Assembly: GCA_965178125.1 (NCBI GenBank)
Contig: OZ237743.1
Span: forward strand, 620,001 to 684,000
Length of the DNA stretch: 64,000 nt
Source of the DNA: Bilabrum cf. latius
Lineage: Eukaryota
Direction of reading: 5' to 3'
A model generated the notes under the pieces. It was not told where the DNA came from, ran no database searches, and saw only the letters and a list, made by a program, of their open reading frames with translations. Positions 1-40,578 of this stretch are shown piece after piece. Within the stretch, counting starts at the first letter, position 1. The number at the start of each line of letters is the position of its first letter. The position numbers and the translations under genes were made by a program.

Positions 1-3000
1 TCACACTGTGCCAGGACCAGGGACCGGAGCCTGGGCTGCAGCTCGGCCAGGGCCAGGATCTCGGCCTTGGCGCCCAGCGGGGGCACAGAGGACATGGAGA
101 GCTCCGCCAGCATCCACTTGGGGGCGTGCAGGGGGGAGGGTCCCACCGGCGACATGGCCTCGCTGGGGAACACCATGGCGCGGAGGTCCTTGGATCCGGG
201 TCTCAGCGCCGCATGGTCCCTGTGGCGGCCCCTGCCCCCTGCAGAGCCGTCCCGCCTGGATCCCGTCCATGCCGCCCCCGGGGCATCGGCGCCCGCCCCG
301 CGAGCGGGCCGTGGCGCGGCGTTGGCAGCCGCCTGCCAGTCCGGGTCGAAGCCCCCGGGGCACGACCCCAGGGAACAGCCCTGCTCCATGGACAACAGCC
401 CCGGGCAGCACGTTAGGCCCGCCCACGCCCCCCTCGCGGGGTCGGCGTCCCCCCCCATGGGCACCCCCGAGGGCCCAACCCCTCCCCAGCTGCCGCGGAT
501 GGGGGCGGACGGGGGTCCCAGCGGCGCGTTAGCACCCTGAGGGGCCTCTACCCCCGGGGTGCCGTCCTTGGCCTCGCCGTCTCTCCAGACCTCGGGCTCG
601 GACAGCCAAGCCAGGAGGGCGGGAGGCAGCAGCGGCGCCGACTGCGACCGTCCCAGGGCCACGCCCCAGCCGGCCATGGCACCGACCCCCGCGGCGGCGG
701 GACCCACGGACACGTGCCGCAGCGACCCTCGGCGGATCCCGGCCTGCATGGCCAGCGTGCTGGGCATGCCGTCCACGTGCATGGCGAGGAGCTGCGGCAC
801 CCTCGCTCCGAATGCAAGGGCCGGCCCTTGCGCAGCAGACGGGGACAGCACGGGCAGCCCTACGCACTCGAGCCCGGCCAGCGGGTGCGCCAGCATGAGT
901 GCCACATCGTCCGCGCTGCCGTCCACGATGGACCCGTCGCCCGAAGACACAGACGAAGAAAAGGGTGCTGTCCGACCCGCCGAGGCCCCGCGTCCGTGGT
1001 AGGGAACAACGCTGGGCATGCGGGCCCGCATCAGCTCGCTGACAGCCACCAGATCCACCGGTTCGGCCTCCGTCGCCGTCCCGCCGTCGCAGCGGAAGGC
1101 CCTCAGGTGGGGCGCAGAGGCCAGAGAACACCGCCGCAGCCCGTACCACGACAGCCTCGGGTTGCCGCTAAGGTCCAAGGCAAGCAGCGTTGAGGAGCCC
1201 AGGGAGGACTGCAGCATCTCTTCCGTCAGCATTACGTGCTCGTGCACGGGCGCACCACCCTCGCCATCGTCGTCAACCTCTTCATTGTTGCGGTACTTGA
1301 CCCCGCACGCGAGCGCCAGCGCCTCGGCGGCCCCACTGGGCAGCGAGTTCCGGGCTAGGGACAGCGCCCGCAGCCCCCCGCAGCCGGCCATCACCCCGCA
1401 CCACGCCTCCAGCTCAGGGTGAGTCGCCCGCGCCTCGACCAGCTCTGCGTCGGCCGCTCTCACCTTGAAGGGTGCGGCAACTCCAGCCTGGTCTGCCTTG
1501 TCCCAAGGGGCTCCTTCTTCGCCTGCACCTGTGGCATAGTCCTCCTCGCCTTCCTCTTTCTCCTATTGATGCCGTTCGTCCGCGGCTCGATCGCTGCCGG
1601 GGGCCCCTAGAGCCACAGCCTCCGCCAGGGCGGCTTCCACGCCGGAGCCATCTGCGAGAGAGTGCAGCACACGGTCGTGCGAGGGCGCCGCGGATGCCGC
1701 CACGGCCCCCTTCACACCCCGTGGTGCCGGCAGCAGCCCCGCGAGGTCCAGGGAACGCAGGGACTCCGTTGCGATGCCCCCGTGCCGGAGCGCCTCCGAG
1801 AGCGCGGTCATGGCGCGACCCCACTGCCGGGCACCCTCCGCTCCCGCGCCCCACTGCTTGCAGTCCGTGGGACCCAGCCCGCGACCCCTGGCTGCCTGAA
1901 GTCCCCGCCTGTGCCCCGCTTTGAGCCACAGGCAGAGAGACTCGATCCCAGCCGCGGACAGCCTGCAGTCCCCCGGCCTTGCTATGGACACATCCAGCCA
2001 CGAGGGGCCACCTGGCCCGTAGGACTCGGCACCGCCGCCTTGACCAGCACCAGCAGCCGCAGCCAGCACGGTTCGGAGGCTCTCGTCCGTCGCGCACATG
2101 TTCCTAAGGGCAAGCCGGGTGGGGCAAGCGTCGCCCGCGCAGAGGTCTCGAAGTGCCTCCACCACGCCAGCAGGGGACGCGCTTCCGGTGGCTGCCGTTG
2201 CTTCCCGAGTGCTTGCCCCGGCTCGATCCCCTACGGGGCCTTTCTCTGCAGCCTGACCGCCTGCCATGCAGACCCCCTCTGGGGTGGTGCTACCGCCGCT
2301 GCCGCTGCGCACCTCGAACTCGAGCAGGCGCATCCCGCAGGGAACAAGGTCCCCGTCCTCTGTTCCCTGGCTCAGCTCCTCCGGTGTCAGTGGCCAGGCC
2401 CTCAGGGACCCCTGCAGCACGAGGCCCTGCAGCCTGCCCCCGCCTCTGCCTCTGCCTCTGCCAGCCGCAAAGCAGGACACCAGCCGTCCGACCGCGGCCG
2501 ACTCTTCCTGCAGCCAGCGGCTGGCAGATTCCCGCCCCCTGATTGATGCGGGAGGGCTTCCAATCCCAGCCACCACCAGCTCGGTGAGGTGCGCCATGCT
2601 GCCCGAGAGACGATCCCAACCGCCTGCTCCCTCGATCACGCCGGCGATGCCTCCCTCCGAAAGGCTAGATACGTCCAAGCAAATCGATCGCAGAGACGAA
2701 TGAGCTGATTTTGAGCCATGCTCGCCGGCCGTAGCGGAAGACTCGGAGGCGGCTGCGTGCGGGGACGAGCTGGCTGGTCGCAGGCCCCGCCCTAGCACAA
2801 CGCCGGGCAGCAGCCCGCGCCTGCCGTCTGCCGCAGCACCCGAATCCACGTCTGGGCCGAAATGCACCGAGCCGAGCTCGACGTGCTAGAGCGTGTCCTC
2901 CCGTCGCAACGCCCCCGTTCTCGCTGCGTCCGACCCAGCGGCAGAGTGCAAGAATGACACGGCGTCCAAAACTTCCTGCACAGCCGCGATGGCATCGTCC

Positions 3001-3353
3001 CTGCCCAACCTAGAATCCACGCAAACCCGAGAGAACTGGACTCGCACTGGCCTGAACTTCCGAATCGCTCGTGCCGCGGCTCGAAGATCGCTGGCATCGC
3101 AGCGGGCGCCTCGAACATCAAACGACGACGTGATCCTGGCAGCTAGCCTAGCAAGAGACACTCTACATCCATTTCGAGCCTACCCTGGACGATTCAGAAA
3201 CTTAAAAGCGTCGGATAGAGCAAACGCTTGCTTGCGGTCGCTTGAACTGCTGGCGCTCGACAACCCGCTGCTACTATCGTAATCAAATGCACGGCGACTA
3301 GCGGTGCTACCTTGGTCCTGTGCTGGCGCATTCCAAACTGCCCTTCCTGCCAT
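1..3353 (-). CDS. Host leucine-rich-repeat (RNI-like) protein; 3' end runs off the window
   Basis: Track ORFs 3180..3812, 2886..3161 and 1563..2867 share one frame, separated only by TAG. The frame continues toward position 1 with LRR-like segments (LRSLDLAG, LRALSLARNSL, LLALDLSGNPRLS). Start taken at ATG 3353; 3812 is an alternative. Confidence 0.6.
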
Positions 3354-4114
3354 GAGCGTTGGTAAACTTGGCGAAGAAATAGCCAGAGAGAGGTTCTTGT
3401 CATCATCATCACTCTCGCGGTGCCACAGTGCCACAGTGTGACAAGTTGACTGGTGGAGGCATCCACAGCATGCAGCAGCAACGCCTGTATTGGATCGTCT
3501 GGAGCGCCTCGGCCCATGCCTTCTTACTGGGGGTGTGAAGGAGGGGGCGGCAGGGCACCCGGGTCCTGGGAAGGTGGGCGGGACGGCGGGCGGCACGGGG
3601 GGCACGAGCTCCAGCACAATACATCTTCCCTCTGTGGAGATGGAGGTGATGAACGCGTAAGCGAGAGGCCGAGGAGTGCCAATAGGGTGGAGCAGTTTGG
3701 GGAGAGTGTACCGCAGGAGGCAGACACCGAGCACTGCCAATGCAAGCTGGGCCGCAGCGTCCGGGTGTAGGGCCAAGCAACCAAGTGTCGAGTTGCATGC
3801 TGCCCCCGCCATGATCAGAGTGACAGGGCGTCAGCATGGTCTGTCATATCAACATGCTTAATCATGATAGCGTGCATCGATTGAGTTGAATCACAGACCA
3901 CTTGGTCCCTCCCTGCCTCTGGCGGAGGCGTGCCTGCCGTTGATCCACTCGTACGCTGGGCACTCCGGCTTCCCAGCAGCCAGCGGTCATGGACGACGCA
4001 CCCCAGAGCGTGGGTGCGAGGTTGAGGTTGAGGTTGGGGTTGGGGTTGAGGTTGGGGTTGGGGGGGGGGGCAATCGGTACAAATCGACGCCCGGGACGCT
4101 ATTCGAACCGGCTA

Positions 4115-5100
4115 TCCCGGATCAACACTGGGGTCGGATAAATTTTTCTCCTTTTTTTGTTTTTGTTTTTGTTTTCTTTGTGCTGTTGCTCTGTGCTTCC
4201 AACGCCGATTCGAATGTCAAGGGCCCTCCCTGCCAGCAGTGCTGCGAGTCGATACCCAGTGGCGGGGCACCCGGGCCAAGCTACAGGCCAAGCAGCATCG
4301 CCGTCAGCGGGCGCCGTGTAGGTGTCGGCCGGGCTAGACCATGCATGTGCGCTCCTTGTCGACTCGTCGTGTCGGTGCTGGGGTGAGGGGACCAATGGAC
4401 GGCTAGGGTACGGCGACGAGGTAGATGTCAGTGACCCCTCGTCACGAGCCGACGGTATCACCGTGGGCGTGCGCCAGGACACGAGAGTAGTGCAGATCGC
4501 CGCAGGAGAAGAGCACACGTGCGCAGTCACGATCCACGGGGATGTGCGTTGCTGGGGATTTGGCGACAGAGGTCAGCTTGGTAGTGCAGGAGGCAGCCCG
4601 GCGGACGTGCCCGACCCCTCATTAGAGGTGCTGCCCGTCCAGCTGGATGAGAGGGGGTGCGCCCTCCCTGCTGCGAGTCGATACTCAGTGGCGGGGCACC
4701 CGGGCCGAGTAGCTTGCGAGCACGCCTGGGCTTACGCTCTGGTGCGACGCAATGCCGTGGTTGCGGGCAATATGAGCACAGAGCCTGCACGCGGTGACTC
4801 TGGCCATGCTTTGTCCTCGGAGGAGCCCGAGGCCAGGTGGGCAGCGCTAAGGTCCGACCAGCTCTATGCCTCCAAACCGCGCGTGAGACTGCGAAACACC
4901 ATGATGCAGCCCGCAGTGGTCCGTGCTGCGCCACTGCTGTTCCGATCTAGTTGTCTGACTTGCAGGCCCATCACTCGGCATGGAGGTACGGCACTCCCTC
5001 CACTATTTACGCACCCCAACATTCGAATCGGCGTTGGGAGCACAGAGCAACAGCACAAAGAAAACGAAAAAAAAAGGAGGAAAAAAAGGAGGAAAAAATT
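4115..5100. mobile_element. Foldback/MITE-like repeat, copy A, containing an RCC1 gene fragment
   Basis: Inverted arms ~4140-4217 and ~5018-5100 (TTTTCTTTGTGCTGTTGCTCTGTGCT.CCAACGCCGATTCGAATGT). Internal 4664-5100 is a direct repeat of 12832-13255. Confidence 0.6.
4278..4660 (+). pseudogene. RCC1/BLIP-II beta-propeller fragment (about 2 repeats)
   Basis: V*VSAGLDHACALLVDSSCRCWGEGTNGRLG and VVQIAAGEEHTCAVTIHGDVRCWGFGDRGQLG; no start or stop of its own; flanked by repeat DNA. Confidence 0.8.
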
Positions 5101-5103
5101 CTG

Positions 5104-5313
5104 CAGAGATAAATGAGCTGATTTCGAGCCACGCTCGCCGGCCGTAGCAGAAGACTCGGAGGCGGCTGCCTGCAGGGACGAGCTGGCTGGTCGCAGGCCC
5201 CGCCCTAGCACAACGCCGGGCAGCAGCCCGCGCCTGCCGTCTGCCGCAGCACCCGCATCCACGTCTGGGCCGAAATGCACCGAGCCGAGCTCGACGTGCT
5301 AGAGCGTATCCTC
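5104..5313 (-). repeat. Duplicated ~210-bp internal fragment of the neighbouring LRR gene
   Basis: Near-identical to 2691-2900 (HFGPDVD.GAAADGRRGLLPG...). Confidence 0.9.
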
Positions 5314-5748
5314 AGGTGAAGCCACCTCGAGAAACGATACTCAGTCCACATGACAGCCCTGTCACCTTGCAGTTACGGCGGTGGCAGGGAAGAGACGTGG
5401 TAGGAAGCTGGATGGCAATAGTAGGAGCTTTGGGGGGGGGGGGGGGTAGCTGAAGGAGTCGTTTGGGATGCTGTGGCTCGGGCAGGCTTGCCTGAAGTGG
5501 ACCAGCACCGGCACGCTCGAGACCAGCAGCCAGTATGACCGAGACGAGCGCTGGCGTGCCGGTGGGCCTGATCACCCGCTAGTGGCGCGGCTGTGAACAC
5601 CCCCTCCGCCCCGCTCTGCACTCTGTTGCCGGTTGGCAGGGGTCTTGCCGCCTGTTGGGGCCCATGCCGTGGGGTCACGGTATCGGTTGACCCTCTGCCG
5701 CTATGCACCCAAGTACATGGACGACGCACCCCAGAGCAGGGGGGTGCG
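5311..5748. repeat. Diverged inverted repeat of 13358-13776
   Basis: 5311-5536 matches the reverse complement of 13545-13776; 5670-5748 matches the reverse complement of 13358-13435. Confidence 0.85.
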
Positions 5749-7138
5749 GGGGATGGGGGGAGCAGCAACTACATGGCCGATTTGCACAGGTGAGTGCTGG
5801 GAAGGAGGATCTGCAGTCTCGCTGGCGACGGGGAGCTGTCTTCGGCAACGCTTGGAGCACTTGCTTCATGCTGCGATGAGTCACTGATGACCTTAACGAG
5901 TAGCTTTGTAGGTGTATGCAAAGCGTGTAGTCAGTCCAATCATGCACGACCACCTGCAAGTGCATTCGGGGCATCGAGCCGGAGGCAGCTATGTCGGACG
6001 CCACAGTGAGAACCAATGTAGCGGTGTTGCGCAGCAGCGGCGCAAATAATCGTCCATTGAGACAATCAAGTTTTCTGATAGTGTGTACTTTTGAGTGGCT
6101 CGGTCGACGATCGCGTACGTCAGGTTGGCCGCCTCACTTCGAGGCTAGCTAAACAAGCCACAGCAACCACAGCGAGCGGTACTTTGGTCCTTAGCCAGCC
6201 TACCAGTGACCAACAATGGACAAACATCGTGTGAGTCGAAGCAAAGTGCACAGAATTTGGCAATTTTCGGTCAGCCAGTCCATGCATTCGGTGTTGCGCC
6301 ACGGATGCCGGGACCGAGGCTGGTGCCACGCTGGAAGGCGATATCCCTCCTTCGACCGAACAAGAGCAAAGAACATACGGAAGTTGATTCATTGTAGTCT
6401 TGCGCTCACACGGCGCGCCCAGATCGAGGTGCAAACCCCTCGCACGAGATTCAAACAGGCGGGCGAGCCGTGCGCGCACTGCAACTCGTGCGCCTTTCTG
6501 CTAAATTCGCGAGGGATCTCCTTTCCGCATCCGGTCGTTCGGAATTCATCCTGTCATGTATTGTACAGAGCATGGTATCTCGCCGATTCTATTTCTGCTG
6601 GTGGCTTGTCTCGTCAATTCGACTTTTGGAGCAGGTGCACGGGATCGGCCCGAGCGGCATACGCCACGGACAGACGGTGAGGCATCCACGCTTCACACGT
6701 GGATGCAACATATCATACCTAATTGTGGTATTGATTGTGCCAAGAGATCTACTGACTGTATGGTTCATGAATGCGACCTTCTGCAACATTGGCAACCCTT
6801 GATTGCCGGCGGTGGCATCCTCACCAGAGAGGCTACCGACCAAAACTATCGCTCATCCCCAAAAATACAAGCCTATTTAACTTATTACCGCTTATTAATA
6901 CTTGCAGGGTCCTTTGGGCGGCCATAGGTCGGAATCCGTCCAGAATGGCGCCGAGCCGCAGAGTGGTCGCAACCGCCGGCCTGATGACGAGAAGTCGGTC
7001 GCGCACTCTCCGCGTCCCAGTCCAGCAGATGCACTGCCTGACCTTGACGGATCTCCCCTCGTTCCTGTGAGATAGATTACAGACTACTTCTCTTTGCGCC
7101 ACAGCTAAGAAAATGCGACGTCTTGCCACCCACATGCT

Positions 7139-10100
7139 TTGCCAACCTTCGATCTGCAGCTGCAGCATGGCTCCAAGGCGAAGTCCACTGTTGAGCACCC
7201 GCATCCTCTCGCCAAGGCTTCTGCAAGGGAGCCTTTATCGATCGGTCGTCGCAATGCGAACCAGCAGAAGCAACAAGGAGACGGGAGAGGCCGACGCGAC
7301 GTAAGAGCACCTTTCGGTGCTTCTGACTGGCCATCATCGCCTTTCGGGCAATCCTGCGGACCTTTCTGTAAAGATAAAGGTCCTGATGAAGGCTTGCCTG
7401 GGCAGGCGCCAGCGAGCTCGCTGGCAGCATCGCGAGCATCATCCTCGTCGAGCTCAGCCGCAACGACTGCACCTCCTGCGCCAACTCGAGGCCAAGTCCT
7501 GCGCGGAGCGGGTCAGCATGATGCGCGCAGCGCTGCCATCTGGACGAGCCAGGTGACAGGGTAGCATGGACATCGGGGGTTGGAAAGCTAGCAACCCGCA
7601 CCTGTTCGCGGCGGCCATGCAAGAGCAGGACATCGCGCAGCAGGACGGACGGAGCCTCCCGATGGCGCGAAAGGACGGAGCAGCGTACAGAACGGTATGC
7701 TGAGCTCCGATTCAAGCTCGGGTGTTTCTGTTTCAGAGAGCAGTTGCGCTGGCGACTCGTCCGATTCGGACATCGAGATGATCGTGCACAGCAACCCGCG
7801 CAGGGACCCGCTCGCCGGAGCGGCCGGTGGAAGCGGATCCCTGGAACAGGAGCAAGACTCTCAGTCAATGTCGAAAAAGAGGCGCACTGGTAGTGGTGGT
7901 GTCTTGGCACCCGCCAAGTCAGAAGATGGCTTGCTGCAGGTGAGAGCCGCCCCCCTCCTCCTAGACGTAGGGAAACCGCTTCTTAACCATCTCTGTCCCT
8001 TTCCCTCGTGCAAGATGAACCACAACGCAGAGCGACGGCCAGTCTCGATCCAGCAAGCCGCAAGCCGCACAAGTTTGCCGCCCTGGGCCAGGTAAGGCCG
8101 CACCCGCCCTGCTCACGAAGCACGCCTAGCCCACGCTGCCACCCTGTCGGCTTGCGCACTGCCCACAACGCCACCCACACCGACCCACCCATCTCGCAGA
8201 AGCGTTCATTCGATTTCGTTGCCTCGTAGGCAGCTCGTGGAACAGCGGCTGCGACCGGGTCTCGAGACTCGAAGCAGTCGAGCTAGGCAAGGGGCGCTGC
8301 TGCTGCGGCTGCGGCTGCGGCTGCTGCTGCGAGCACCGTGAGGAGGCCACTTGTCCAGTCGCGTCTGCAATTTGGAGCTCCCGCCCAATCCATGGCCAGC
8401 CAGGGCAGCGCCCGAGTGCCTAGACGCGCGCATCAGCTGTCTGCATCCTCAGCGGCGGCGCAGAGTGCACCGGGCTCGGCGGCGCAGAGTGCACCGGGCT
8501 CGGCACCATCATCCGCGCCCATTTCCGGCATCACCACCGGCGGAGGCGCATCAGGCGGCCTCAGCCCACGCGGGATGGCTCCGACCGAGGCGAGCAGATC
8601 CAGGGCAGCGGCCGTCGGCGGCGGCGAGTCGAACGCGGCTGCCGAGCTGCAGATCGCGGCCCCCGATTCCGAGCTGCAGGACGAGGACGCGGCAATGAGC
8701 GACGTCGTGGAGTACGACGAAGCCATCCTCAGTCAAGACAGCACGGCAGAGGCCGCTGACCCGGGGCGCGGCTCCGCGGAGATGGTGGCTCTCCAGCAGC
8801 TCGCACCGCCGCCGCTGCAGGCCGCTCTGGGCAGCTACCTGACCTTTACCGGGTTCAGCAGGAGCATGACGGAGCAGGAAGGGAACGCAGCTCAGTCCCA
8901 AACGCTTGGTCAGAATGCAGGGAGGCGCACCCGCGCGAGGCAAGACCTGCTCGCAGCGATCGTGCTGGTTGCCATGTCTCGACCCGACGGAGCTGATCCA
9001 GCCGAGGCCGACGAGCACGAGGTCGCAGTCCTCCGCGCAGCTCTGGCGATGGTGTTCTAGTGCGAGGCAGACATGGACGAGGCGGACGGATGGGCAGCGG
9101 CGGTGGACCCCGGGAGCTACCGGTACAACTCGTTCCCCGCGAACGACGATTCGATCATCCGATGGGTGTCCCTGTTCGCCCGAGAGGCAACGATGCAGGA
9201 GCTGGCGTGCCTGGCGGCATGTCACGGCCAAGCCAGGGCTGCAATGGACACCAGACGATCGTTTGCTCCTGCCGAGCACGTGTCCGGTGCTGTGCAGGCG
9301 CTGCTCGCCCACGCAGAAGACCAGTAGGCGGCAGCGTCTTCTAGTTCCAGCGCGGCGAGCGCCATGGAAGAAGAGGAAGACGACGCGACTCAGCCCGCCC
9401 CGTGGCTCGTCGTAGTCCAGGGCCACCACGGGCAGGATTCCGCCTCGGTCGCTAGAGCCCTTCGCACGTCGCCCGACGGGGGCGCCTGCAGTCCGCGCGG
9501 GTAAGCCAGCTTTGTGGACCACGGGCTCGACGTGCTCCTCGCCGCGCTCGACCGAGGAAGGATCGCGCGCATGCCCACGCATCGTCTGGGCGAACAGGAC
9601 CTGCAAGGCGCTGCAGCCGCCAGGCAAGTGCTGCTGGGTCGCGTGCGAGCCAAGCTCCAAGGCTGCAGCAGCGTTGTGGTTGACTGCGCGGCCATCCGAC
9701 GCCTGTCGCCCCACAAAGGTCGTCCGCCGAGCTCCGGTCCCTCGTCGGGCAGCGGATCCTCCGAGTCGCAGCCAGCCAGCATCGACAGCAGCGCGGACGA
9801 GGCGGACCCCGCGCCCGAAGACGCGCGGCTTCAGCCGGCGCGAATGCGCTGCGCGCGAGTCGTGACGGCAATCCACCAGGTCGTCAAGTCCGCGATGGAG
9901 GATGGCCCTGAAGCCGCGGCGCGAGGCCGCGAGGTGCCGCCGATGTGCTTGACGTTGCCCCAGTCTGGCGCTCCCAGCGAGGATGATGCCGCCGGGGAGG
10001 GACGCGATATTCTGCTCCTCGAGACGAGCTCCAGCGAGCTCGAGGCGGACGCGGCCGCCCTTCGAGGCCGTGCGAGACGTCTGGTTGCCGATCACACGGA

Positions 10101-10648: not shown

Positions 10649-10691
<43 letters not shown>

Positions 10692-10747
10692 ATGAGGGCG
10701 AGGAGGCGGACGGAGTTGAAGACGAGGAGGCCGCTCTTCTTCCTCCC

Positions 10748-10805
<58 letters not shown>

Positions 10806-24105: not shown

Positions 24106-24308
24106 GATAATATGCGCCTAATCAAAAGCAGATCGATTTGCCTAGAGCAGGACTTCTACTCCCAGTAGATGGAGCTTGAGAGTGTCGAAATCGTCAAGGA
24201 TCCTAAATCGGTTTGAGGTTGCAACCGCCATCGCGGCGAACGTCGAACGATTGGCATCGAGCGGTCGCGCGGGGCAACAATCATTTTAAACATTGCCCAA
24301 TGCACCCA

Positions 24309-31100: not shown

Positions 31101-34100
31101 ATGGAATCAACCAATTACGATCGAGCTTGGCGAGGCGTGCTTCGCGGCCTGGGAAGGGCAGCGGCAGACTCGCTCGAGCTTTGTCGCGGCTCGGGCCCCT
31201 CGTTTCAAGCTGCTGCTACCAGTGACGACTCTGCCGTGGCAGGCGCACCGGGCGAAGGTGGTGCCCCACCCTCGGCATGTATCAACCACTGGTGGGTGCT
31301 TGCAGCGAGCAGCAGCCTGTGTGAACAGCTTGCTGCAGACTGCGTGACGGAGCTAGCCGCTTGCGCCCAGGAGCGATCTGGCACTGGCAGCCACAGCTGC
31401 GGTGATGCGGGCGTAGGCAAGGCCCCGAGCGCAAGCCTGGGATCAGTTGATGCAACTCCCACCCAGCCTGCGGAGGACAGCAAGTGCATGGCAGCCGATT
31501 GCGATGCAGTGCTTTCGGTTGCAACCAAGACCGCCCTGTTTGCGAGCATTGCGGGGGCGGGGCACTTGCTCGGATCGGGAAAGCGAGCACTGCGGCAGGA
31601 CGGAGCCGCTTGCCTCGAAACGATTGCAGCCGGCATAGAAGCACAGGTCAGTGGTGATGCGGGCGGAGCACTTGCTCGAAGAGGGCGAGCACGAGCACTT
31701 GCTTCGCACGACCTGCTCGCTCAGGCGATCTCTGCAGCCGCAGTGGCTTCGCTGGGCGATATATCCAGGAACGCTTCGCGTCATGGTGGCTCCATCGATG
31801 GATCTGTGGCCCGTGGCGTATCTCTTCTGCAGTAGTGCGTGGTGAGAAGAGACTCCGGGGCCAGCACGGCAGCTGTGGGCGAGCAGTCGGCAGCACCTGT
31901 ACCAAGGGCTGCTGGCTCGCAATTGATCGAATTCTCGTTGTTTTCGGACGTGTTTCGCGGGGGTAACCTCGTTGTGCTCGCCTCTGAGAGCGCGAGGCAC
32001 TTGCTCGGCCCGGCCTGGATGCGAGCATGGACGAGCATGGCACGTCTGCTCGCACTCGCAAGGAAACAAGGCAGAGACCCGGCGGTCCCTCGAACCGCTT
32101 GGTACCTTGCACTTGCCGCCAGCGTACTTCTGGTGCGCTGCCTCAGCGCGGGAGCGGGACTCGCTCAGAGGCTTGCCTTGCACGTTGCGTTGGTCGCAAC
32201 AAGTAGCCTGGCGCGTGGCATCATCAACCAGCCTGCCGCAGGATCGCATCAAGTTGCAGACCACGTGGCCATGACACGGCTGGTTCAGTCAGTGTGCGTC
32301 CCTGTTACTCTAGACCGCGATCCCGCTGGCAGTGGAGCGACCGCCGCGAGGAGTCTGGAAATAGAAGAAAATATGCCCTTGTGTGATGTGCCATGGCTGT
32401 GGGCGGCGACTGCGTCTAGTAAGCACTGGCGCGAGCAGAGCTCCATGTCTCCTGGTGACGCCTACTGCACCTCGCCGCGAGCACTGCAGTCATTGCTAGC
32501 AAGTGCACTGAGCTCACTGGCTGTGCTTCTGCCTGGGGCAGCGTTTCATTCGATGGTTGGCTTGCCCTTGCTGCAGCGGGCTGTTGCTAGCTTGTCGAAA
32601 TCTTCGCGACCGCTTGCCTCACTAGGCAAGGCAGCTGCGGACACTCCTGCAAGCTTCGAAGCCGTGTTTCGGACGGTGTCTGTCCGACCTACGAACGCGC
32701 CTCACGCGTGCGGGCTCGTCCTTGCACTTGCAGAGGCGCTTGAGGCATCGTGCGAGACACGGGCGCCGAGTCCGAATTGGCTGTAGGATGCCACCAATGC
32801 GCTGACCCATACCGTAGGAGAGGCAGGCGGCTCGGGCAGCTTCGCGCATGGCAGCGTCCCAACTCTCCTCGCATCGGGGTCACTGAGCAACCAGAGCTCC
32901 CAGATACATGGTGCGGTTTCTTTGCAGAGCAGTGGGTTTGTAGCTTTGAGCCGCCTTGCGTTTGCCCTTACATGCGACGCCGGCACGGCAATGGACTGGC
33001 CGGATCTTCCCCAACTTAGGACGCTGGACTGTGCACTCTGTCGCATAGCGTACTGTGGGGCTCAGACCTAGCTGCGGCCAGACAGCCCGCCGCAAAGCGG
33101 GGTCGGGTTCTCTTCACCAGCGGAAGATGGAGAGCGTCTGCCGAGAGGTGCCGATCGTCGTGCAATTTCAGTGTTGAAAGCAGTGGCATTGGACCACCTG
33201 GCTGTTCTAGGCATTGAGTCTAAGTCAGCCGATGCTAGGGCTGCACTGGAAATGATAAGGAATGTTGCAATGCACACAGGGGCTGCCAAGCCGACTGCGA
33301 GCGACTGCGAGATTGTCTTGGACGGCGCATGGGCAGACACCATTGTGCACGCTGCAGTCCAAGGGCTGGCGCTTGGGGCTGGGCTGGACGATGCGGTTGA
33401 AGGGCTGCTTGGAGCAGCGTCCGGCCTATCAGCCCGAATTGGTGAGGTCGCAGCCACTCCAGACAGTTAGGTTACAAGTCAGTTAGCCTGGCTGTGCCGT
33501 GCATGCCTGGCATGCCACCAACTTGCTTGCAGTACGAAGACTTGGGGTCAAAATTCCGCCACTCTTCTGCTTGCTGTCTCTACTTGTGGAGCACCAATCG
33601 TACAGGCAGCAGCCGCCGCGTCAGAGAAGAATCCCGATGAAAGCCAGGGGTGTTTGGACCTTGCACTGCTATGGGTGTGTACCCTGCGTGCATGCGTCGC
33701 GTCTTCTGCCCGAGAAAGTAAAGCATTTGGCACGTGGGAACACGATAAGATTACCGAGGTCTTGCAGTCAGTGGGTAGCACGCTTCGAATTGATGCGCTT
33801 GCTGCGCTGCGCGGCCCATTGGCATGTGGCGATGAAAGCGGGTCTGAAGGCCTCAGCACGTACCTCCGCTGGATTGATAGCATTCTTCAATAGATTAATG
33901 GTCAGATGGCGTCTTGCGACGCCCTACGCAGGCTGTTTGCTGGCTTGCGACCGTTCGAGTGGACAGACTCTGCTGCTGCGGACCGATTCGCAGACGCACT
34001 GGTCGCCTAGTCAGGTCGGCTGCAAGCAGCTCTCCCTCAGGGGGAGAACCACAGCAGAGGAGGGGCCTGTACGATTGCTGAGGTAGCAATCGGGGAGGAA

Positions 34101-36695
34101 GGGGCCTGCCATGCAGCTGGTGCCTGGACGTCGCATCGGTCTGCCTCCGTGCAGCTGCCAAAGGGTCTTGCTAGCGTCATTCAAGAGAGCATACCGTGCC
34201 GGGATTCCGACAGTATCAGATTTTCTCGAGGTCTTTGTATTGCAGTGCACGCAATCGTGAGCAAGTGTGGGAGCGTTCCAGCCCCGTCGAGGAGCTACCT
34301 GTCTCGGTGGTGCGCCCAGCTGTCCCTGCATGCTTGCGCGATGCAGCGGTCTGGATCCAGTGCAGCGATCAAGGTCCGAACAGGAAGCCTGCTAGGCGTT
34401 GGACGCGTTGAACAAAGCGAGTCACGCGCAGCAACAGCAGAATCAGGCACACCTCCACCGGTGTCAGATATCGTGGATAGCACCTGCCGCAACGCCATCG
34501 ATCTTGCTGTGAGCAGCTCTGACCCAGCGGCCAAGACCGCATGGGAAATCGTTGCAGGATGCATGTGGGCGATCCAGATCCTCAGAGAGGAGCCGGAGCA
34601 AGGTGATGATGATCGACACGTGCCCCAATGCTCTACCGGTGTGGAGTCACCCTGTGTAGCAATTGTCCGCCAACGCGGCACAACAGAACTCTCGACTGTA
34701 ATGCAAGCAATCATGGGTGGAATTCTGGATTGCTCTGCGCAGTAGCCATCGGCGGCATGCCGGCCGGCTTAGTCGCAAGAGTCGAGAGCATCCAGCATGG
34801 CAGTAGCAGCACTGATTTCGGCGGGTTTTGGCGCGTCCTTTATTCGTAGTGACTCAATCGGAACTAGTCGTCTTTCTGGGTTGTCAAGGCAGCTTGTGCT
34901 TGACACTGCAGCAGCAGCTGCTCCATTCGCAACCATGCCGGTGGCATCGGTGCAGCATCCTGCCCTGCGCGCGTGCTAGCTGCTCCACTCGCTGCTTGGC
35001 AGTGTGACGGGCGAGTCAAGCCTAGACGCCAGCGAATCTGCAGTGACCGACGATCAATGCTCGGATTCTCGACCCGAGTAGCAAGGTTCCAGGTCAGGAC
35101 TGGCTGCATTCGAGGCTGCAGCACGGCAACCGTGGAGGGACCTACGACGGGCGCCAGCGTGGCTATCAACATCTGCATTGGCAGCGTTTTCTGTGTCCGT
35201 AAATCCCACTGATCCGGAGTGCTTCCGTGCAGCTTGTCGGATGTGCTGGGTCGAGATAGGCGTGGAGGCGCAAGGCAGCTCGAGCAAGGCGTCGCAGCTC
35301 TCGCTGCTTCAAGTGCCATGGTGGCTCTCTCGCAGTTAGCAAGCTGACGGAAGAACTCAAGCGGAAGAATCTGCGGCAGCCGTATCAGTCGGCGGCGACC
35401 AGAGCCTGCCGAGGACAGACGCTGGATGTACTAGCGGACGGCTGTCGCTGGTCCGCATACCCGCCCCTGACCTGTCGTCTTGGCTCCGACAGGTCCCGCC
35501 GGCGGTCCAGGCACTCGTGTGCTCCTTTCAGGCAAAACTTAAACAATGTGCATTTTGCGGATCTTCTGGTCATTTCAGCGATGTTGCATGGATTGCAAGC
35601 CTATCTTTGCTGGCGGCATGGTGCGCGGACGCAGCTGCAGTTCCTCTCACCGCGGCGTCTTGCTAGAGGCCCAGAAAATTTAAGGCCGGCACAAAGATGA
35701 AAGGAAAGGGGAGCCATGGGGCTTCACGCTCACTATCCACTGGAAAGATCTCTTCGATTGGAGCGGGCCAGGCCATTGCCACGGCTGTCGAAGCCGGGGT
35801 GCTGCAGAGGAAGCCAACACGCGTCGCGGTGGGTGGCAGGTCGGTCCATCCGGATGCGCCGCCAGGAGCAGCCGAAGGAATCGGCAATACTAGCAGCCCA
35901 CTCCGCCAAGAAGCCGCGACTGCTTTGCCCAAGGACGCGTCAGCGCCACTCATTGGTCTTGGTCAAGACTTAGAGCATGCCAGGTCTGTTCCAACGACCG
36001 GGGAGATCCCCGCAGCCTTGTCCGACATGCTGGGTCACGCCTCATCGGGGCGCTGCGCCCTGCCTGTCGTTCTGGTTGGCAGCTTGCTTACGGATGCGGC
36101 AAACATCGGGGCGCTCGTCAGGACGTGCGAGGTGCTCGGCGCCGCGGGCATGGTCATCCCGAGCGACGGATCCATGCGCTCGGCTGGTGCTGTAGCCGCT
36201 GCGGTTGGTGCCGGCACGCACCTTCGCACCGCTGTAGTCGGGGCAGACGAACTGCCCGACATATTGTCCAGTCTACGTGCTATGGGCGCTGGCGCTGGTC
36301 CTGCGGTGGCCTCGGGGAGCAAACCACCCCGCAGTGGCGTGTGTGCGAGGCCGCTGCTGGTGGCACTAGAGCAGACCAGCAGCTCTGCCCCCCTTCGGGC
36401 ATGGAGACAGAGCCTGGAAGAGATGTGGTTGTCGAAGCCGCGTGCTGACTGTACTTCTAATGTCTCCAGCGAGGCCGCAGACGAAGGTGGCCCGGCTTGC
36501 AGCGTGACAGCTGGAGGACCCAGGGCGGTGGTCCTGGTGCTGGGGAGCGAATCAAGAGGCATGTCGCCCGCAGTGCTCTTGCAGTGTGATGCTGCCGTGG
36601 AGATTCCCCAAGCTGGCAAAACAGCCAGCCTGAACGTCGCGGCGGCTGCCACGGTCGCCCTGACAGCTGCGCTTGCAGCGGTGGGCCGTGCTTAA
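31101..36695 (+). CDS. Giant SpoU/TrmH-family RNA 2'-O-methyltransferase, Trm3/TARBP1-like architecture
   Basis: Seven track ORFs lie in one frame joined via TAG. C-terminal SPOUT motifs NIGALVRTCE, ALEQT, LVLGSESRG, EIPQAGKTASLNV; TAA stop. True start may lie upstream. Confidence 0.75.
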
Positions 36696-37049
36696 TTTTT
36701 GTGCTGCCTGCCTGAAGCCGCACCAGCTTCGTGCAGTGTCGGCGGTGGGCGGAGCGTACCACATCGACGTACTAGGACCATGTTGGCTCGTGCGGCACTA
36801 TCAAGCGACGTGCTTTATTTCGCTATACATGCCATAGTGTCTGTCGTGACAGGTGGGCAATCACGATGGCAGGCGGAACCGAGCTTTGCACCGGATACGC
36901 TCCGTTGCTCTGGGTTCCGGTTGCAGGTACATAAGGCTACACTGCCTGAGCAGGAATGGTATAGAGGCCTACTCTCCCAGCAGGTCAAGCTCGGGTCCGT
37001 TCGAAGCGTTTGTTACGTGGGGATCCAGGTCTGGTTTGCTGCGTGATGA

Positions 37050-39730
37050 ATGACCGACACCGGATCAAACCCAAGACCTCGCATGGCCTCCCCAGGTATG
37101 TACGATGTAGCATATCTGCGTGCTGATGAAACTGAAATCTATGCTGGTTATTATCTGATCCCTTGCGCCGGTACAAGCTCACGAGCATGCTACTCTCACC
37201 GTTCGCAACTGGAAATGCCATCTCCTCCTCCCATTCTGAGCGCAGGAGCGACCGGTGAAGGCCGGGATATTTTAGATACAATAAGTGCAAGCCAATATTT
37301 GGGTCATGGAGCTGCCGGTCATGTATTCAAGGCTACGTACAATGGCAAGGACGTTGCTGTCAAAGTGATCGCGTGTAACAGCACGGAGAAGCTAGAGCGC
37401 TGCACACAATAGATCATTCGAGAGATCGACTGCTTGAAGAAGGTGCTATCAGGATACGCAACGCAGGTAGAAAGAGATCGGATAGTCGCTCCAATTGCCT
37501 GGGGGCAGACCTAGTACAGGCTGCTCAAGCTTGTGGGCGAGAATAAGGTCGAAAAAGCACCTGCATCGTTGCCGTAGCTCGCTGTTGTGTATCCACTTGT
37601 TGGTGGTTTGGAGCTATATGATGTGGTGCGGCATGGTCGGCTGGAAGAACCTGTTGCGCAGTATTTTTTGCGAAGAATCATCGGCGCTGTGGAAATGCTG
37701 CATAGGGCAGGCGTTGCGCACAGAGACCTCAAGCCCGACAATGTTATGATAAGTAAATCCATTGAAGTTAGGCTCATTGACTTTGGGATGGTGGCCGATG
37801 CTGCCCGAACTCGCGGCGTCAGGTCTACGGTGAGTTCGAGCACGCTTTCCCATGTCCCTTGGATCCTTAGCACAAGCCTATTGTGACAGCTGACATTTTA
37901 TCTCCTGCCGGTGTCGACTATCCCTCAAACGCGCAGTGGTGCGGAACAGACCTGTATAACTCCCCGGAACGCCACGGGAGGGTGGCAGGCATTCCCAAGG
38001 GCAAGTACGACGCATTCAAGGGCGATGTCTGGAGCATAGGCGTCATGGCGTTCATTATGATAACAGGAAAGTTACCTTATTCTGCTACAGGCCCTCATGT
38101 GCACGGCAAGGTGTACCAGCGGAACTTCCGCGATCCCAGGCAGGACTGCACCGCATACAAGCTGATCGAGAAAGAGGACTGGAAGGGCTTTTGGGCATAC
38201 CAAAAGGAGCGTCGTGGGATCGATATGCCTGGTGCAGATGGATTCAAACAGTTCATACAGGGCACTCTCCGGTGGCACCCCAGCAAGCGCGCCTCCGCCT
38301 ATGACCTCACCCGGAACCCTTGGCTCTTCTTTCGCGGGTTTAGAGACGAGGAGATCGAGCCACGATGGATCGCTCCCATTTTAAAAGACAGAGAAAATAG
38401 AACGCTAAGAATCAAGCAGAGAGAGCTGGAGCTGGAGAGGGCAGACCTCGCCCGCAGGATGGGGATGAGGACGGGGCCAACGGCGGGGCCCGCCGGGGGC
38501 TCCAGCAAGGTGGCGGGCGCAGGCCGCGCCCCCGCGCCTGGCACCACGAGCACGACACACGGGGCGGCACCGGGAGGCACTGGCAGCACCGAGGCCAGCA
38601 CCGCCGACGCTGCCCGCATGAGCGAGAGCTCCAGAGGCCCGGCAATGGGGGGCGCTACTATGGGGTCAGGCGAGGCATCAGGGGACCGGGGTGGTGCCGG
38701 AGGGGCGCCCATGGACTCGGGGGAGGGAGCTGGGGACACGGCAGACCTGACTGCTGCGCCTGCACGCGGCGAAGGGGGGGCGCCCATGCGAACAGAGAGT
38801 GAGGGTAGCACGGTGGCGGGGTCCGCATCCGCATCCGAGTCAGGGTCAGGGTTGGGGGGGTCGTGCAAGCCCATGGACTCGGGCTAGGAGGGCACGGCGG
38901 CGGGGGAACACATGGAACATTTTCGCTCCGGGTCGGACGTGCTGCGGAAGCTCACCGATGGCAGCAGCTCGGCGCCTCCTCCGAGCGGGGCATTCCGCGT
39001 GCTGCCCTCACTCAGCCCTGCTGAGCTCGGCCTCCTTCCCCACGTATAGCTTGAGGGTGTGGTGAGTGCGGACGCGCTGTCTCGGTTTCCGGAAGCGATC
39101 AGCCGCGTGTCCCGGATCCGATCGGCACGGCGGCTAGACAACGACAAGCCCATCATGTCGCTCGTGCAGCTGACCGTCGGTGCTCCCGACCTAGGCATCG
39201 AGGTGATGCCAGCACCGGCCGTGGCGGAAGGCATCGACGTTGGCGCCCAAGAAGGCGCGAGTGCGGACGATTATGCAGCGGCACCCAGGGGTTCCCCTGC
39301 AGCGGCCGAGGCGCATGAGACGAGCGAATTAACCAGAAAGCGAAGCACCACCACCACCACAACCGCCGGCGCCGCAGGTGCAGCTGCAGAATCGAGCAAG
39401 TTGAAGCCACCAAGCTCTCCTTCTCCAGCGCCCGTCATGCCAACGTGGTTCGGCGAGATGTCGGAGCTTGAGCAGTTAGATGTGCTGGACCGGGCAGCGG
39501 ATGGCGCCGATTCTCAGATGGAAGTGGAGGTGGTCGAGGTGCGAGCCAGGGCTGGTGCAGAATCCGCCTCGCCGGGGGTTGCACTCGTTGGACGGCTGCT
39601 CGAGGGCAGCGGAAAATCGAGCGTGATGGATGTTCTTTGGGCCGTGAAGTTTGCCATAGAGGCAGAGAATGTCCCCGGGTCTGCTGGTTCCGCTGGGGCA
39701 GGGACGAGCGGCGAACCAGGCTCATCTTGA
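37050..39730 (+). CDS. Ser/Thr protein kinase (CAMK-like) with long C-terminal tail
   Basis: GHGAAGHV, VAVK, HRDLKPDN, DFG, CGTDLYNSPE, DVWSIGV; short intron from 37830 to ~37870; several in-frame TAG; TGA stop. Confidence 0.85.
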
Positions 39731-39960
39731 GACCCTGTCTTTTGCTCCCTCCCATACGAGGCTCATCTTGCGATCAGCCTCGCCCGCCCGGGGAGTTGGT
39801 CGTCACGCGACGCTATCGAATGGTAGTTGTAGTTGTGTGTTAAACATTAGACTCTAGTTGGTTGATCGATTCCTGACCGCTTTGTCGGCCCCCGTGATCT
39901 TTGGGATATGACCACGCAAAAGGACTTGCAGGCAATGGCGCCACTCCGTGTTCACACACT

Positions 39961-40539
39961 TTACGCAGTGTACGACTTACGTAACGCACTTGGCCGATGG
40001 TTTCGCTTTTGCGAGTAGCCCTTGGGCTGTCCGGCAGCTCCAGAACCATACCGATGAGTGGCATCACCATGGGCAGCATGGGCACCACCGTGACGTGTCC
40101 CACGCGCTGCTTCTGCATCGCCATGACTGGCTCCATCGTTGCCTCGCCGTTTACGTGCAGCCCGATTCGACACCGGCGATGGATTCGCACGCAGCGCTTC
40201 GTCCTCGTCTTCGTCCTGATCAGCAGCTGGCTCTTCCCGACCGTTTGCCTCATGTGATCCGACGTATCCCCTTGCGGCCGAACTAGACGCGGCCGCAGCA
40301 GCAGCAGCAGCAGCAGCAGCCATGCGACGACCTCGTATGGCCCGACTGCGCCGGGGCCCTTTTCCAGCGGTTGCTCCTCGCCCTACTCCAGGGGATCGGT
40401 TGGGTGAAAATGACAGGTTCCAACTGGAGGCATCTTCGCTTCCACTGGCTTCGTTGAAGACATCTTCACGCTGCACTGCACGGCCGCTTGAGACAGCAGC
40501 CCCCCCACCACTGCCAAATCCACCTCGCGGCCTGGGCAT
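39961..40539 (-). CDS. Possible host protein immediately next to the viral insertion
   Basis: 192-aa ATG..TAA ORF with host-like composition and poly-Ala; no recognisable domain. Confidence 0.3.
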   Translation of the reverse strand: MPRPRGGFGSGGGAAVSSGRAVQREDVFNEASGSEDASSWNLSFSPNRSPGVGRGATAGKGPRRSRAIRGRRMAAAAAAAAAAASSSAARGYVGSHEANGREEPAADQDEDEDEALRANPSPVSNRAARKRRGNDGASHGDAEAARGTRHGGAHAAHGDATHRYGSGAAGQPKGYSQKRNHRPSALRKSYTA

Positions 40540-40578
40540 ATGTACTGCACTTGACCGGCTATTCGCAGCACCTCGATG

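What the first reader, a model, noticed from the sequence alone, without database searches (positions are those of the whole stretch)
1..40540. Host nuclear code reassigns UAG alone; UAA and UGA stay stops
Seen: amidase, two kinases, the SpoU methyltransferase, the membrane protein and the LRR gene are broken by TAG and end at TAA or TGA. In the RCC1 fragment, V-TAG-VSAG (4319) parallels V-CAG-IAAG in the next repeat. Known: in most recoded nuclear genomes UAA and UAG are reassigned together; UAG-only reassignment is rare. Inference: the host has a tRNA-Gln(CUA) and an eRF1 that discriminates UAG from UAA. Host identity cannot be determined from this window.
Basis: partly seen in the sequence, partly recalled or inferred. 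Interest (0 to 1): 0.85.

Follow-up and report, generated by a model that had tools for sequence, protein, structure and literature searches.

The report
Eukaryote reading UAG as glutamine
A GC-rich eukaryotic genome, and a virophage integrated in it, use the stop codon TAG as an ordinary glutamine codon while TAA and TGA still end genes: a rare but already known kind of genetic code change.

Summary
Six host gene models (6764 codons) carry 41 in-frame TAG, 0 TAA and 0 TGA. Each ends at TAA or TGA. Three have canonical GT..AG introns, two of them seen spliced in public contigs.

TAG behaves as a glutamine codon. In near relatives (74-98% identical), 14 of 17 residues opposite a window TAG are Gln. 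The same alignments give 59 of 79 for ordinary CAA/CAG codons and 11 of 2432 for all other positions. One paralogue has CAG where the window has TAG. A relative's ORFs stop exactly at three of the window's TAG codons, and homology resumes downstream on the same contig after one of them.

The adjacent low-GC virophage shows the same code more cleanly. Coding density is 29% under the standard code, 81% with TAG as sense, 44% with TAA and 34% with TGA.

The proposed tRNA-Gln(CUA) and altered eRF1 could not be tested, because no genome is held. Host identity is unresolved. UAG-only-to-Gln codes are published for Iotanema, Protocruzia and some phyllopharyngean ciliates, so this is a new member of a known kind. 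The added interest is a virophage fully adapted to the code.

The parts
1..40600 (.). GC-rich (about 54-72%) eukaryotic host DNA with densely packed genes on both strands. The boundary to the low-GC element is gradual, around 40.6-42.5 kb.
   Evidence: Composition profiles; Pfam domains; GT..AG introns.
3..3812 (-). It has 3 in-frame TAG (codons 211, 309, 750) and runs off the window, so its stop is not seen.
   Evidence: No Pfam family at E<=0.001.
4214..5116 (+). RCC1-repeat fragment. The TAG at 4319-4321 sits at the repeat position that is CAG (4493-4495) in the next repeat.
   Evidence: Pfam RCC1_2 E 6.2e-18; translation; codons. In UVR8 alignments the position pairs with I in one blade and Q in another.
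12669..12740 (+). tRNA-Val(GAC), the only tRNA in the window. There is no tRNA with anticodon CTA.
   Evidence: ARAGORN; Rfam RF00005, 45.1 bits.
16469..20376 (-). Large membrane-like protein gene (last exon), ending TAA. It has 10 in-frame TAG, at codons 111-1291 of the ORF numbered from 20461.
   Evidence: Relative P0178 has Q opposite TAG 326 and 400. The relative's ORFs end exactly before TAG 479 and TAG 696.
20377..20470 (-). 94-nt spliceosomal intron (GTGAGT...TTGCAG) of the membrane-protein gene.
   Evidence: Joint 20373->20468 (cut +3) in one contig of run X5; sequence.
21742..24231 (-). Protein kinase gene, 829 aa, 7 in-frame TAG, ends TAA.
   Evidence: Pfam Pkinase E 4.7e-14. A paralogue 87% identical over 21781-22486 reads G at 22017, which turns TAG codon 739 into CAG.
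24309..27844 (-). One gene of 1121 codons: exon 1 27844-25904 (PAN domain, 5 TAG), a 170-nt GT..AG intron at 25734-25903, and exon 2 25733-24309. Ends TGA.
   Evidence: Pfam PAN_4 E 2.4e-10. Spliced 1862-nt contig in X5 with 0 differences. The junction is in frame.
28179..30557 (-). Amidase (fatty-acid amide hydrolase-like), 792 aa, TAG at codons 14 and 454, ends TGA.
   Evidence: Pfam E 2.5e-67. Relative P0001 (95% identical over 500 aligned residues) has Q opposite codon 454 and the same C-terminus.
31101..36695 (+). 1864-aa protein with a C-terminal SpoU methylase domain ending 10 residues before TAA. It has 12 in-frame TAG.
   Evidence: Pfam. Relatives P0121 and P0122 have Q, Q, L and E opposite TAG 245, 790, 931 and 970. 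P0121 ends just before TAG 1215.
37050..39730 (+). Second protein kinase gene, 857 aa, with a predicted 107-nt GT..AG intron at 37830-37936. It has 5 in-frame TAG and ends TGA.
   Evidence: Pfam Pkinase E 2.3e-24. Removing the intron keeps the frame and joins the DFG-containing exon to an exon that begins WCGTDLYNSPE and goes on to DVWSIG. The intron is predicted and was not seen spliced.
40600..64000 (.). Integrated low-GC (about 28-38%) virophage that continues past the window end. It has 24 ORFs of at least 70 aa covering 85% of the DNA, with 90 in-frame TAG in 6607 codons. 20 ORFs end in TAA and 4 in TGA.
51666..52823 (+). rve-type integrase of the virophage, with 7 TAG. It also has a weak chromodomain match below Pfam's cut-off.
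   Evidence: PF00665 E 8.9e-12; Chromo 21.7 bits against a cut-off of 25.1.
59025..59978 (+). Virophage penton (minor capsid) protein, 5 TAG.
   Evidence: PF21507 Sputnik V18/19, 29.2 bits against a cut-off of 27.
60050..61939 (+). Virophage major capsid protein, 629 aa, 9 TAG, ends TAA.
   Evidence: 55 homologues at E<=0.001. The Pfam MCP_V20_C match is below its cut-off. P0123 and P0180 (96-98% identical) have Q at 9 of 10 comparisons opposite TAG 314, 316, 520, 562 and 615, and share the C-terminus.
45430..47925 (+). Primase-helicase-like protein of the virophage (DUF5906), 9 TAG.
   Evidence: PF19263, 28.5 bits against a cut-off of 27.6.

Best explanation
The GC-rich part of the window is nuclear DNA of a eukaryote whose cytoplasmic translation reads UAG as glutamine and ends proteins only at UAA and UGA. 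This is the pattern of NCBI table 15.

Shown here:
- UAG is frequent inside expressed, spliced, homology-supported genes. It makes up about 0.6% of codons and about 15% of Gln-type codons.
- UAG sits opposite Gln in near relatives as often as CAA/CAG codons do.
- A related organism has stops at the same in-frame positions.
- UAA and UGA never occur in frame and coincide with conserved C-termini.
- A virophage integrated next to these genes follows the same rule, as expected for a virus translated by the host's ribosomes.

Inferred, not shown: decoding is by a dedicated tRNA-Gln with anticodon CUA, which pairs with UAG but not UAA, and the host eRF1 has lost recognition of UAG while keeping UAA and UGA.
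For: 1. Codon counts. Six host gene models hold 41 in-frame TAG, 0 TAA and 0 TGA in 6764 codons. The off-frame rate predicts 54, 23.5 and 112.5. Terminators are TAA in 3 genes and TGA in 3.

2. Identity of the residue. In 7 pairwise alignments with near relatives (74-98% identical), window TAG pairs with Q in 14 of 17 comparisons (the others are L, E and A). Window CAA/CAG pairs with Q in 59 of 79. All other residues pair with Q in 11 of 2432 (details). A paralogue contig has CAG at kinase codon 739.

3. Conserved in-frame stops. The relative's predicted ORFs end exactly before window TAG codons membrane 479 and 696 and SpoU 1215. After membrane codon 479, homology resumes 3 codons later on the same 3151-nt contig.

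4. True terminators. The relative's amidase and the related capsid proteins end at the same residue as the window's TGA- and TAA-terminated ORFs. The SpoU domain ends 10 residues before TAA.

5. Nuclear and expressed. A contig of run X5 joins 25733 to 25904 across a 170-nt GT..AG intron with 0 differences, and another skips a 94-nt GT..AG intron. X5 depth is very uneven (3.4-176) against a flatter 15.4-27.4 over most of the stretch in X1 (up to 122 where paralogue contigs pile up). X5 contigs covering TAG-bearing exons show 0 differences, for example 30579-36699, which covers the SpoU gene to within the stretch laid.

6. Virophage. ORFs of at least 300 aa number 1 under the standard code, 8 with TAG as sense, 1 with TAA and 1 with TGA. 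Coding density is 29%, 81%, 44% and 34% respectively. With TAG as sense there are 24 tightly packed ORFs with gaps of 8-410 nt.

7. Mechanism. The CUA-anticodon argument and the eRF1 GTS-motif change in Iotanema come from passages read in PMC5304391 and PMC9161772.
Against: - The sample is only about 30 genes from one window, so genome-wide behaviour is unknown.
- ORFs were delimited by TAA/TGA. A gene that really ends at TAG would be silently extended and not noticed. The only check is that TAG is not enriched near ORF ends: among the 26 ORFs tabulated, one virophage ORF and one host ORF have a TAG within the last 10 codons, against about 3 expected by chance for the 24 virophage ORFs.
- Three of 17 comparisons are not Q (L, E, A).
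- In distant homologues the TAG columns are variable and say nothing about the residue.
- In the GC-rich part, ORF length and coding density do not separate TAG-sense from TGA-sense (83% against 82%).
- No tRNA(CUA) lies in the window. eRF1 was not seen.
- The tool labels X5 'RNA? (probably DNA)', so its RNA nature rests on the two spliced joints and the uneven depth.
- Contiguity of the host and virophage parts was not checked with reads.
Confidence: 0.86

Rival explanations
1. UAG is ambiguous. It is read as Gln inside genes but still ends some genes depending on context, as in Condylostoma, karyorelict ciliates or Blastocrithidia's UAA.
For: The window cannot exclude it. ORFs were defined by TAA/TGA, so TAG terminators would go unnoticed. 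Such codes exist (listing and abstract of bioRxiv 10.1101/2022.04.12.488043 and of PMC4967479).
Against: All gene ends that could be compared with relatives are TAA or TGA. TAG is not enriched in the last 10 codons of ORFs. In-frame TAG occurs at nearly the off-frame frequency (6.1 against 8.0 per 1000), as for an unconstrained sense codon.
Confidence: 0.07
2. UAG is a sense codon for a residue other than Gln (Leu, Glu, Tyr, Ser or Lys, all reported elsewhere), or is decoded as a mixture.
For: Three of 17 near-relative comparisons are L, E and A. Distant-homologue columns are uninformative. UAG=Leu, Ser and Glu codes exist (passages of PMC11687900).
Against: 14 of 17 comparisons are Q, against 0.45% Q at non-Gln positions in the same alignments. 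The 82% rate matches the 75% conservation of ordinary Gln codons. Window E, L, K, Y, W and S positions pair with Q in 2, 0, 0, 0, 0 and 0 cases.
Confidence: 0.03
3. The TAGs are not translated: the genes are pseudogenes, the TAGs are assembly or sequencing errors, or the mRNA is edited (UAG to CAG) before translation.
For: Bellas et al. (PMC10120064, passages) and Hackl et al. (PMC8547959, one passage) report that premature stops in endogenous viral elements are often assembly artefacts.
Against: Only TAG interrupts frames, never TAA or TGA. Contigs from four runs in three studies agree with the window with 0 differences over TAG-bearing exons. A related organism has stops at the same positions. 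Spliced, RNA-like X5 contigs keep the genomic letters, which argues against editing.
Confidence: 0.02
4. The GC-rich 40 kb is not nuclear DNA but a GC-rich giant-virus genome or another episome that carries the virophage. The code would still be that of the unseen host.
For: Genes are very densely packed, many ORFs have no Pfam family, and a virophage lies alongside. From recall, not tested here: some GC-rich giant viruses have spliceosomal introns.
Against: No giant-virus hallmark gene turned up among the ORFs scanned. The domain set is cellular in type (FAAH-like amidase with best named hits in fungi and animals, RCC1, PAN). An rve integrase lies in the adjacent element, as expected for chromosomal integration.
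Confidence: 0.03

Closest known systems
UAG-to-Gln with UAA retained as stop in Iotanema spirale (Fornicata); Panek et al. 2017, PMC5304391, and PMC9161772
   Same: Only UAG is reassigned, the residue is Gln, and UAA and UGA remain terminators. The same mechanism is predicted: tRNA-Gln(CUA) derived from tRNA-Gln(CUG), plus an altered eRF1 (passages).
   Different: According to the passages read, Iotanema is known from a transcriptome. Here there is genomic DNA at about 60% GC with introns and an integrated virophage. No sequence comparison with Iotanema was possible, so identity with or distance from that lineage is unknown. The eRF1 T32G change could not be looked for.
UAG-only reassignments in ciliates: Protocruzia tuzeti and two phyllopharyngean lineages (UAG=Gln), others UAG=Leu; McGowan et al. 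2024, PMC11687900
   Same: The same code table (UAG=Gln, UAA/UGA stop), which arose independently several times (passages).
   Different: The window is GC-rich with 94-170-nt GT..AG introns and long multi-gene contigs. From recall, ciliate macronuclear DNA is AT-rich with very short introns, so a ciliate host is unlikely. This was not tested phylogenetically.
Coupled UAR-to-Gln codes (NCBI table 6: many ciliates, Dasycladales/Cladophorales, Hexamita, Streblomastix, Amoeboaphelidium)
   Same: A stop codon reassigned to Gln through tRNA-Gln anticodon change.
   Different: In those codes UAA is also Gln. Here UAA ends 20 of 24 virophage ORFs and 3 of 6 host genes and never occurs in frame. Reading TAA as sense does not restore the genes.
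Endogenous viral elements that follow the host's variant code: Streblomastix strix EVEs using TAA/TAG=Gln; Bellas et al. 2023, PMC10120064
   Same: An integrated small DNA virus uses the same non-standard code as its host (passage).
   Different: Here the element is a virophage (Sputnik-type penton and capsid, rve integrase) and the code is UAG-only. TAG makes up 1.4% of its codons.

Membership tests
UAG-only-to-Gln nuclear genetic code (NCBI table 15 pattern) | In-frame UAG inside conserved, homology-supported protein-coding genes | tested here: met
   41 in-frame TAG in six host gene models, of which five have Pfam matches and three have near-relative matches.
UAG-only-to-Gln nuclear genetic code (NCBI table 15 pattern) | UAG positions correspond to Gln in homologues | tested here: met
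   14 of 17 near-relative comparisons are Q, against 59 of 79 for CAA/CAG and 11 of 2432 for other positions. One TAG/CAG paralogue difference. Distant homologues are uninformative.
UAG-only-to-Gln nuclear genetic code (NCBI table 15 pattern) | UAA and UGA absent in frame and used as terminators at conserved C-termini | tested here: met
   0 TAA and 0 TGA in 6764 host codons. Virophage ORFs end 20 times in TAA and 4 times in TGA. C-termini are shared with relatives for the amidase (TGA) and the capsid protein (TAA).
UAG-only-to-Gln nuclear genetic code (NCBI table 15 pattern) | UAG not used as a terminator genome-wide | tested here: inconclusive
   Only an indirect check on about 30 genes: no excess of TAG near ORF ends. 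No genome is held.
UAG-only-to-Gln nuclear genetic code (NCBI table 15 pattern) | A tRNA-Gln gene with anticodon CUA | not testable with these tools
   The only tRNA in the window is Val(GAC). No genome is held.
UAG-only-to-Gln nuclear genetic code (NCBI table 15 pattern) | eRF1 N-domain altered at the motifs that read the third stop-codon base (GTS, NIKS, YxCxxxF) | not testable with these tools
UAG-only-to-Gln nuclear genetic code (NCBI table 15 pattern) | mRNA keeps UAG (no editing) and protein carries Gln there | tested here: inconclusive
   Spliced, RNA-like contigs of X5 show 0 differences over TAG-bearing exons, but the run's RNA nature is inferred. No proteomic data.
Virophage integrated in a host genome | Virophage capsid module (major capsid plus penton) with an integrase, inserted in host DNA | tested here: met
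   Penton PF21507 above its cut-off and rve PF00665 E 8.9e-12. The capsid protein has 55 homologues. The Pfam V20 match is below its cut-off. The packaging ATPase is suggested only by a Walker A motif in the translation of ORF 57004-58104. No protease was identified. Terminal inverted repeats were not seen because the right end lies outside the window.

The most novel reading that the evidence does not exclude
The host is an undescribed GC-rich, non-ciliate, non-fornicate eukaryote lineage, with at least one sister species sharing the trait, that evolved the UAG-only-to-Gln code independently. It also supports a virophage, and therefore presumably a giant virus, whose genes are fully adapted to that code. 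TAG-bearing virophage relatives are already present in environmental metagenomes (L001, L002). This would be the first virophage-giant virus-host system in a host with a non-standard code.
Probability: 0.35. Interest if true: 0.8.

Novelty: new member of a known kind. Interest (0 to 1): 0.66.

Why it matters
Nuclear codes that separate UAG from UAA are few, and according to the passages read the tRNAs and release-factor changes behind most of them are still unknown. This organism already has genome and RNA-like data in public runs, so the predicted tRNA-Gln(CUA) and eRF1 change become directly checkable.

The integrated virophage adds a second point. It uses TAG heavily (90 of 6607 codons), so it must replicate in cells with this code. 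That implies a giant virus adapted to the same code. A 2026 catalogue states that all confirmed giant-virus isolates come from standard-code hosts (PMC13524828, passage).

There is also a practical consequence. Standard-code gene callers cut these genes into pieces, as seen in the database proteins P0001, P0121-P0123, P0178 and P0179.

Tried and rejected
- Whole genome: none is held.
- Distant-homologue columns for the TAG positions of the amidase (120 homologues), the kinase (PDB alignments) and the capsid protein (55 homologues) are too variable to name a residue.
- The search for related loci with the capsid protein alone found nothing in viral contigs.
- The alignment query in metagenome contigs gave only 3 distant loci. 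The contig of P0124 was not retrieved.
- An exact 50-nt host stretch was not found in genome contigs.
- The listing of cluster members gave no names for the relatives.
- No RNA holder is listed on record among the 7 runs found.
- Table 3 of read laying was cut (99 rows not shown), so the paralogue's letters at kinase TAG codon 812 were not seen.
Host placement by that route was dropped.
- Seven literature searches found no paper describing a GC-rich protist with UAG=Gln and an integrated virophage. This does not show that none exists.
The eRF1 alignment of PMC5304391 and the species tables of PMC11687900 and PMC10120064 were therefore not seen, and they could bear on whether this organism is already reported.
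- Pfam gave no family for the 'LRR gene' or for nine further host ORFs.

Full report
**What the window is.** The window has two parts. Bases 1 to about 40,600 have 54-72% G+C. From there to 64,000 the G+C falls to 28-38%.

With TAG read as a sense codon, the GC-rich part holds these genes:
- a fatty-acid-amide-hydrolase-like amidase (PF01425, E 2.5e-67);
- two protein kinases;
- a 1864-aa protein ending in a SpoU methylase domain;
- a PAN-domain protein;
- an RCC1-repeat fragment;
- several long ORFs without a Pfam family.

The low-GC part is a virophage. It has a Sputnik V18/19-type penton (above Pfam's cut-off), a major capsid protein with 55 homologues, an rve integrase, a DUF5906 primase-helicase-like protein, a C5 DNA methylase and two DUF285 repeat proteins.

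**The GC-rich part is nuclear and expressed.** Public contigs laid on 16,700-36,699 include one 1862-nt contig of run X5 that matches the window with 0 differences but skips 25,734-25,903. On the coding (minus) strand the skipped piece begins GTGAGA and ends CGCAG.

A second X5 contig skips 94 nt (20,377-20,470; GTGAGT...TTGCAG) in the membrane-protein gene. A third intron (37,830-37,936, 107 nt, GTGAGT...GCGCAG) is predicted. Its removal keeps the frame and joins the DFG-containing exon to an exon beginning WCGTDLYNSPE.

X5 depth varies from 3.4 to 176 along the stretch. The probable source run X1 is flatter, 15.4-27.4 over most of it, rising to 122 where paralogue contigs pile up. The tool itself labels X5 'RNA? 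(probably DNA)', so its RNA nature is my inference from the spliced joints and the uneven depth.

**Check of the observation.** In six host gene models (6764 sense codons) there are 41 in-frame TAG, 0 TAA and 0 TGA. The other two frames of the same DNA would predict 54, 23.5 and 112.5. Three genes end in TAA and three in TGA. TAG makes up 15% of TAG+CAG+CAA.

TAG at 4319-4321 stands in 'AV#VSAG' and CAG at 4493-4495 in 'VVQIAAG'. In alignments to UVR8 that repeat position pairs with I in one blade and Q in another, which is consistent but weak.

Three corrections apply:
- The 'LRR gene' (3-3812) has no Pfam family at E<=0.001, and its stop lies outside the window.
- The only TAG of ORF 24309-25820 lies in the intron.
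- Amidase TAG codon 14 lies where none of the 120 homologues aligns and may precede the true start.

In GC-rich DNA, ORF length alone is a poor test. Reading TGA as sense also raises apparent coding density (83% for TAG against 82% for TGA). The host case therefore rests on homology.

**Which residue.** Distant homologues do not help, because the TAG columns are variable. Near relatives do help.

Database searches returned fragments of a related organism on short contigs:
- P0001 (amidase, 95% identical over 500 aligned residues);
- P0121 and P0122 (SpoU protein, 74% and 83%);
- P0178 and P0179 (membrane protein, 78% and 89%).

They also returned two capsid fragments from other assemblies, P0123 and P0180, at 98% identity.

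Opposite window TAG codons these relatives carry:
- Q at amidase 454, SpoU 245 and 790, membrane 326 and 400;
- Q at capsid 314, 316, 520 and 562 in both copies, and at capsid 615 in P0180;
- L at SpoU 931, E at SpoU 970, and A at capsid 615 in P0123.

That is 14 Q of 17 comparisons. In the same alignments, ordinary CAA/CAG codons pair with Q in 59 of 79 cases, and all other positions in 11 of 2432. TAG therefore behaves like a Gln codon, not like E, L, K, Y, W or S.

Independently, a paralogous contig 87% identical over 21,781-22,486 has G at 22,017, which makes kinase codon 739 CAG instead of TAG.

These fragments appear to have been called under a standard-type code. P0123 and P0180 begin at the first Met after window TAG 295. 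P0178, P0179 and P0121 end immediately before window TAG codons 479, 696 and 1215. So the Q letters are real CAA/CAG codons, and the relative has stops at the same in-frame places. P0179 resumes 3 codons after the end of P0178 on the same 3151-nt contig. The relative therefore shares the trait.

**UAA and UGA stay stops.** The virophage gives the cleanest test because it is AT-rich and TAA is its commonest stop triplet.
- Stop-to-stop ORFs of at least 300 aa number 1 under the standard code, 8 with TAG as sense, 1 with TAA as sense and 1 with TGA as sense.
- Greedy non-overlapping coding density is 29%, 81%, 44% and 34% respectively.
- With TAG as sense the element resolves into 24 ORFs covering 85% of the DNA, with gaps of 8-410 nt. 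20 end in TAA and 4 in TGA. There are 90 in-frame TAG in 6607 codons.
- The capsid protein's TAA and the amidase's TGA fall where the relatives' proteins also end. The SpoU domain stops 10 residues before TAA.

**What remains open.** ORFs were delimited by TAA/TGA, so a gene that truly ends at TAG would be extended unnoticed. The only check is that TAG is not enriched in the last 10 codons of ORFs. An ambiguous sense/stop use of UAG is therefore not excluded. I give it about 7%.

Pseudogenes, assembly error and RNA editing are unlikely for three reasons. Only TAG interrupts frames. Contigs of four runs from three studies agree with the window. The spliced X5 contigs keep the genomic letters.

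Only anticodon CUA reads UAG but not UAA, and Iotanema eRF1 carries T32G in the GTS motif (passages). It could not be tested here: no genome is held, and the window's only tRNA is Val(GAC).

**Comparison with what is known.** Passages of PMC11687900 list UAG-only reassignment to Gln in Iotanema spirale, Protocruzia tuzeti and two phyllopharyngean ciliate lineages. They list UAG=Leu in a rhizarian and some ciliates, and UAG=Ser in Scotinosphaera. The code itself is therefore known.

The host here is GC-rich with 94-170-nt introns. From recall, that does not fit ciliates. Nothing in the window allows a phylogenetic placement, and the amidase's best named hits are scattered over fungi and animals.

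An endogenous virus following its host's variant code has a precedent in Streblomastix (PMC10120064, passage). I found no report of a virophage doing so in seven searches. A 2026 catalogue states that all confirmed giant-virus isolates come from standard-code hosts (PMC13524828, passage).

Two metagenome contigs, L001 and L002, carry 99%-identical capsid genes that are 28-29% identical to the window's. They too have in-frame TAG only, 2 in the capsid gene and more in neighbouring ORFs.

**Verdict.** The reading 'UAG alone reassigned, to Gln; UAA and UGA stay stops' is well supported for this locus and a related organism (confidence 0.86). The tRNA and eRF1 mechanism is inferred. The finding is a new member of a known kind of code change. 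It is made more interesting by the code-adapted virophage and by the fact that genome-scale data for the organism evidently exist.

Noticed in passing
window 40600-64000: Integrated low-GC virophage that continues past the window end and uses TAG as a sense codon (90 in 24 ORFs). In most of its genes tabulated, TAG is commoner than CAG. The left boundary is gradual in G+C, and no terminal inverted repeat was found inside the window.
   Followed up: partly
window 48079-48176, 58725-58822, and inverted at 63261-63378: An intergenic element of about 100 nt is repeated three times within the virophage (73-86% alike), upstream of or between genes. It may be a shared promoter or regulatory region.
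   Followed up: no
window 62309-62461: Tandem array of a 20-nt unit (six overlapping 53-nt copies reported) in a virophage intergenic region.
   Followed up: no
window 12669-12740: tRNA-Val with anticodon GAC. From recall, eukaryotic nuclear genomes usually use AAC (inosine) for this box, so GAC is unusual.
   Followed up: no
window 21781-22486: The C-terminal part of the kinase gene has a paralogue elsewhere in the genome (94 differences in 706 nt; on a 15,658-nt contig of X1). Its contigs have far higher depth in X5-X7 (up to 232) than the window copy.
   Followed up: partly
L001 4810-6693 and L002 1048-2931, plus neighbouring ORFs: Two environmental virophage contigs (40-44% G+C, capsid genes 99% identical to each other) also have in-frame TAG and no in-frame TAA or TGA in the capsid, penton-position and other ORFs. 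TAG-recoded virophages therefore occur beyond this genome.
   Followed up: partly
window 10403-12256: ORF with long poly-Ala runs and repeated 'EADGVE...EAALLPPP' units, one TAG near its end, and no Pfam family.
   Followed up: no
proteins P0001 and P0122 (same 4991-nt contig of a relative): The relative keeps the divergent amidase/SpoU gene pair. Both of its predicted proteins start at internal Met residues (amidase 292, SpoU 130). That would fit further in-frame stops in the relative where the window has sense codons, but its DNA could not be read.
   Followed up: no
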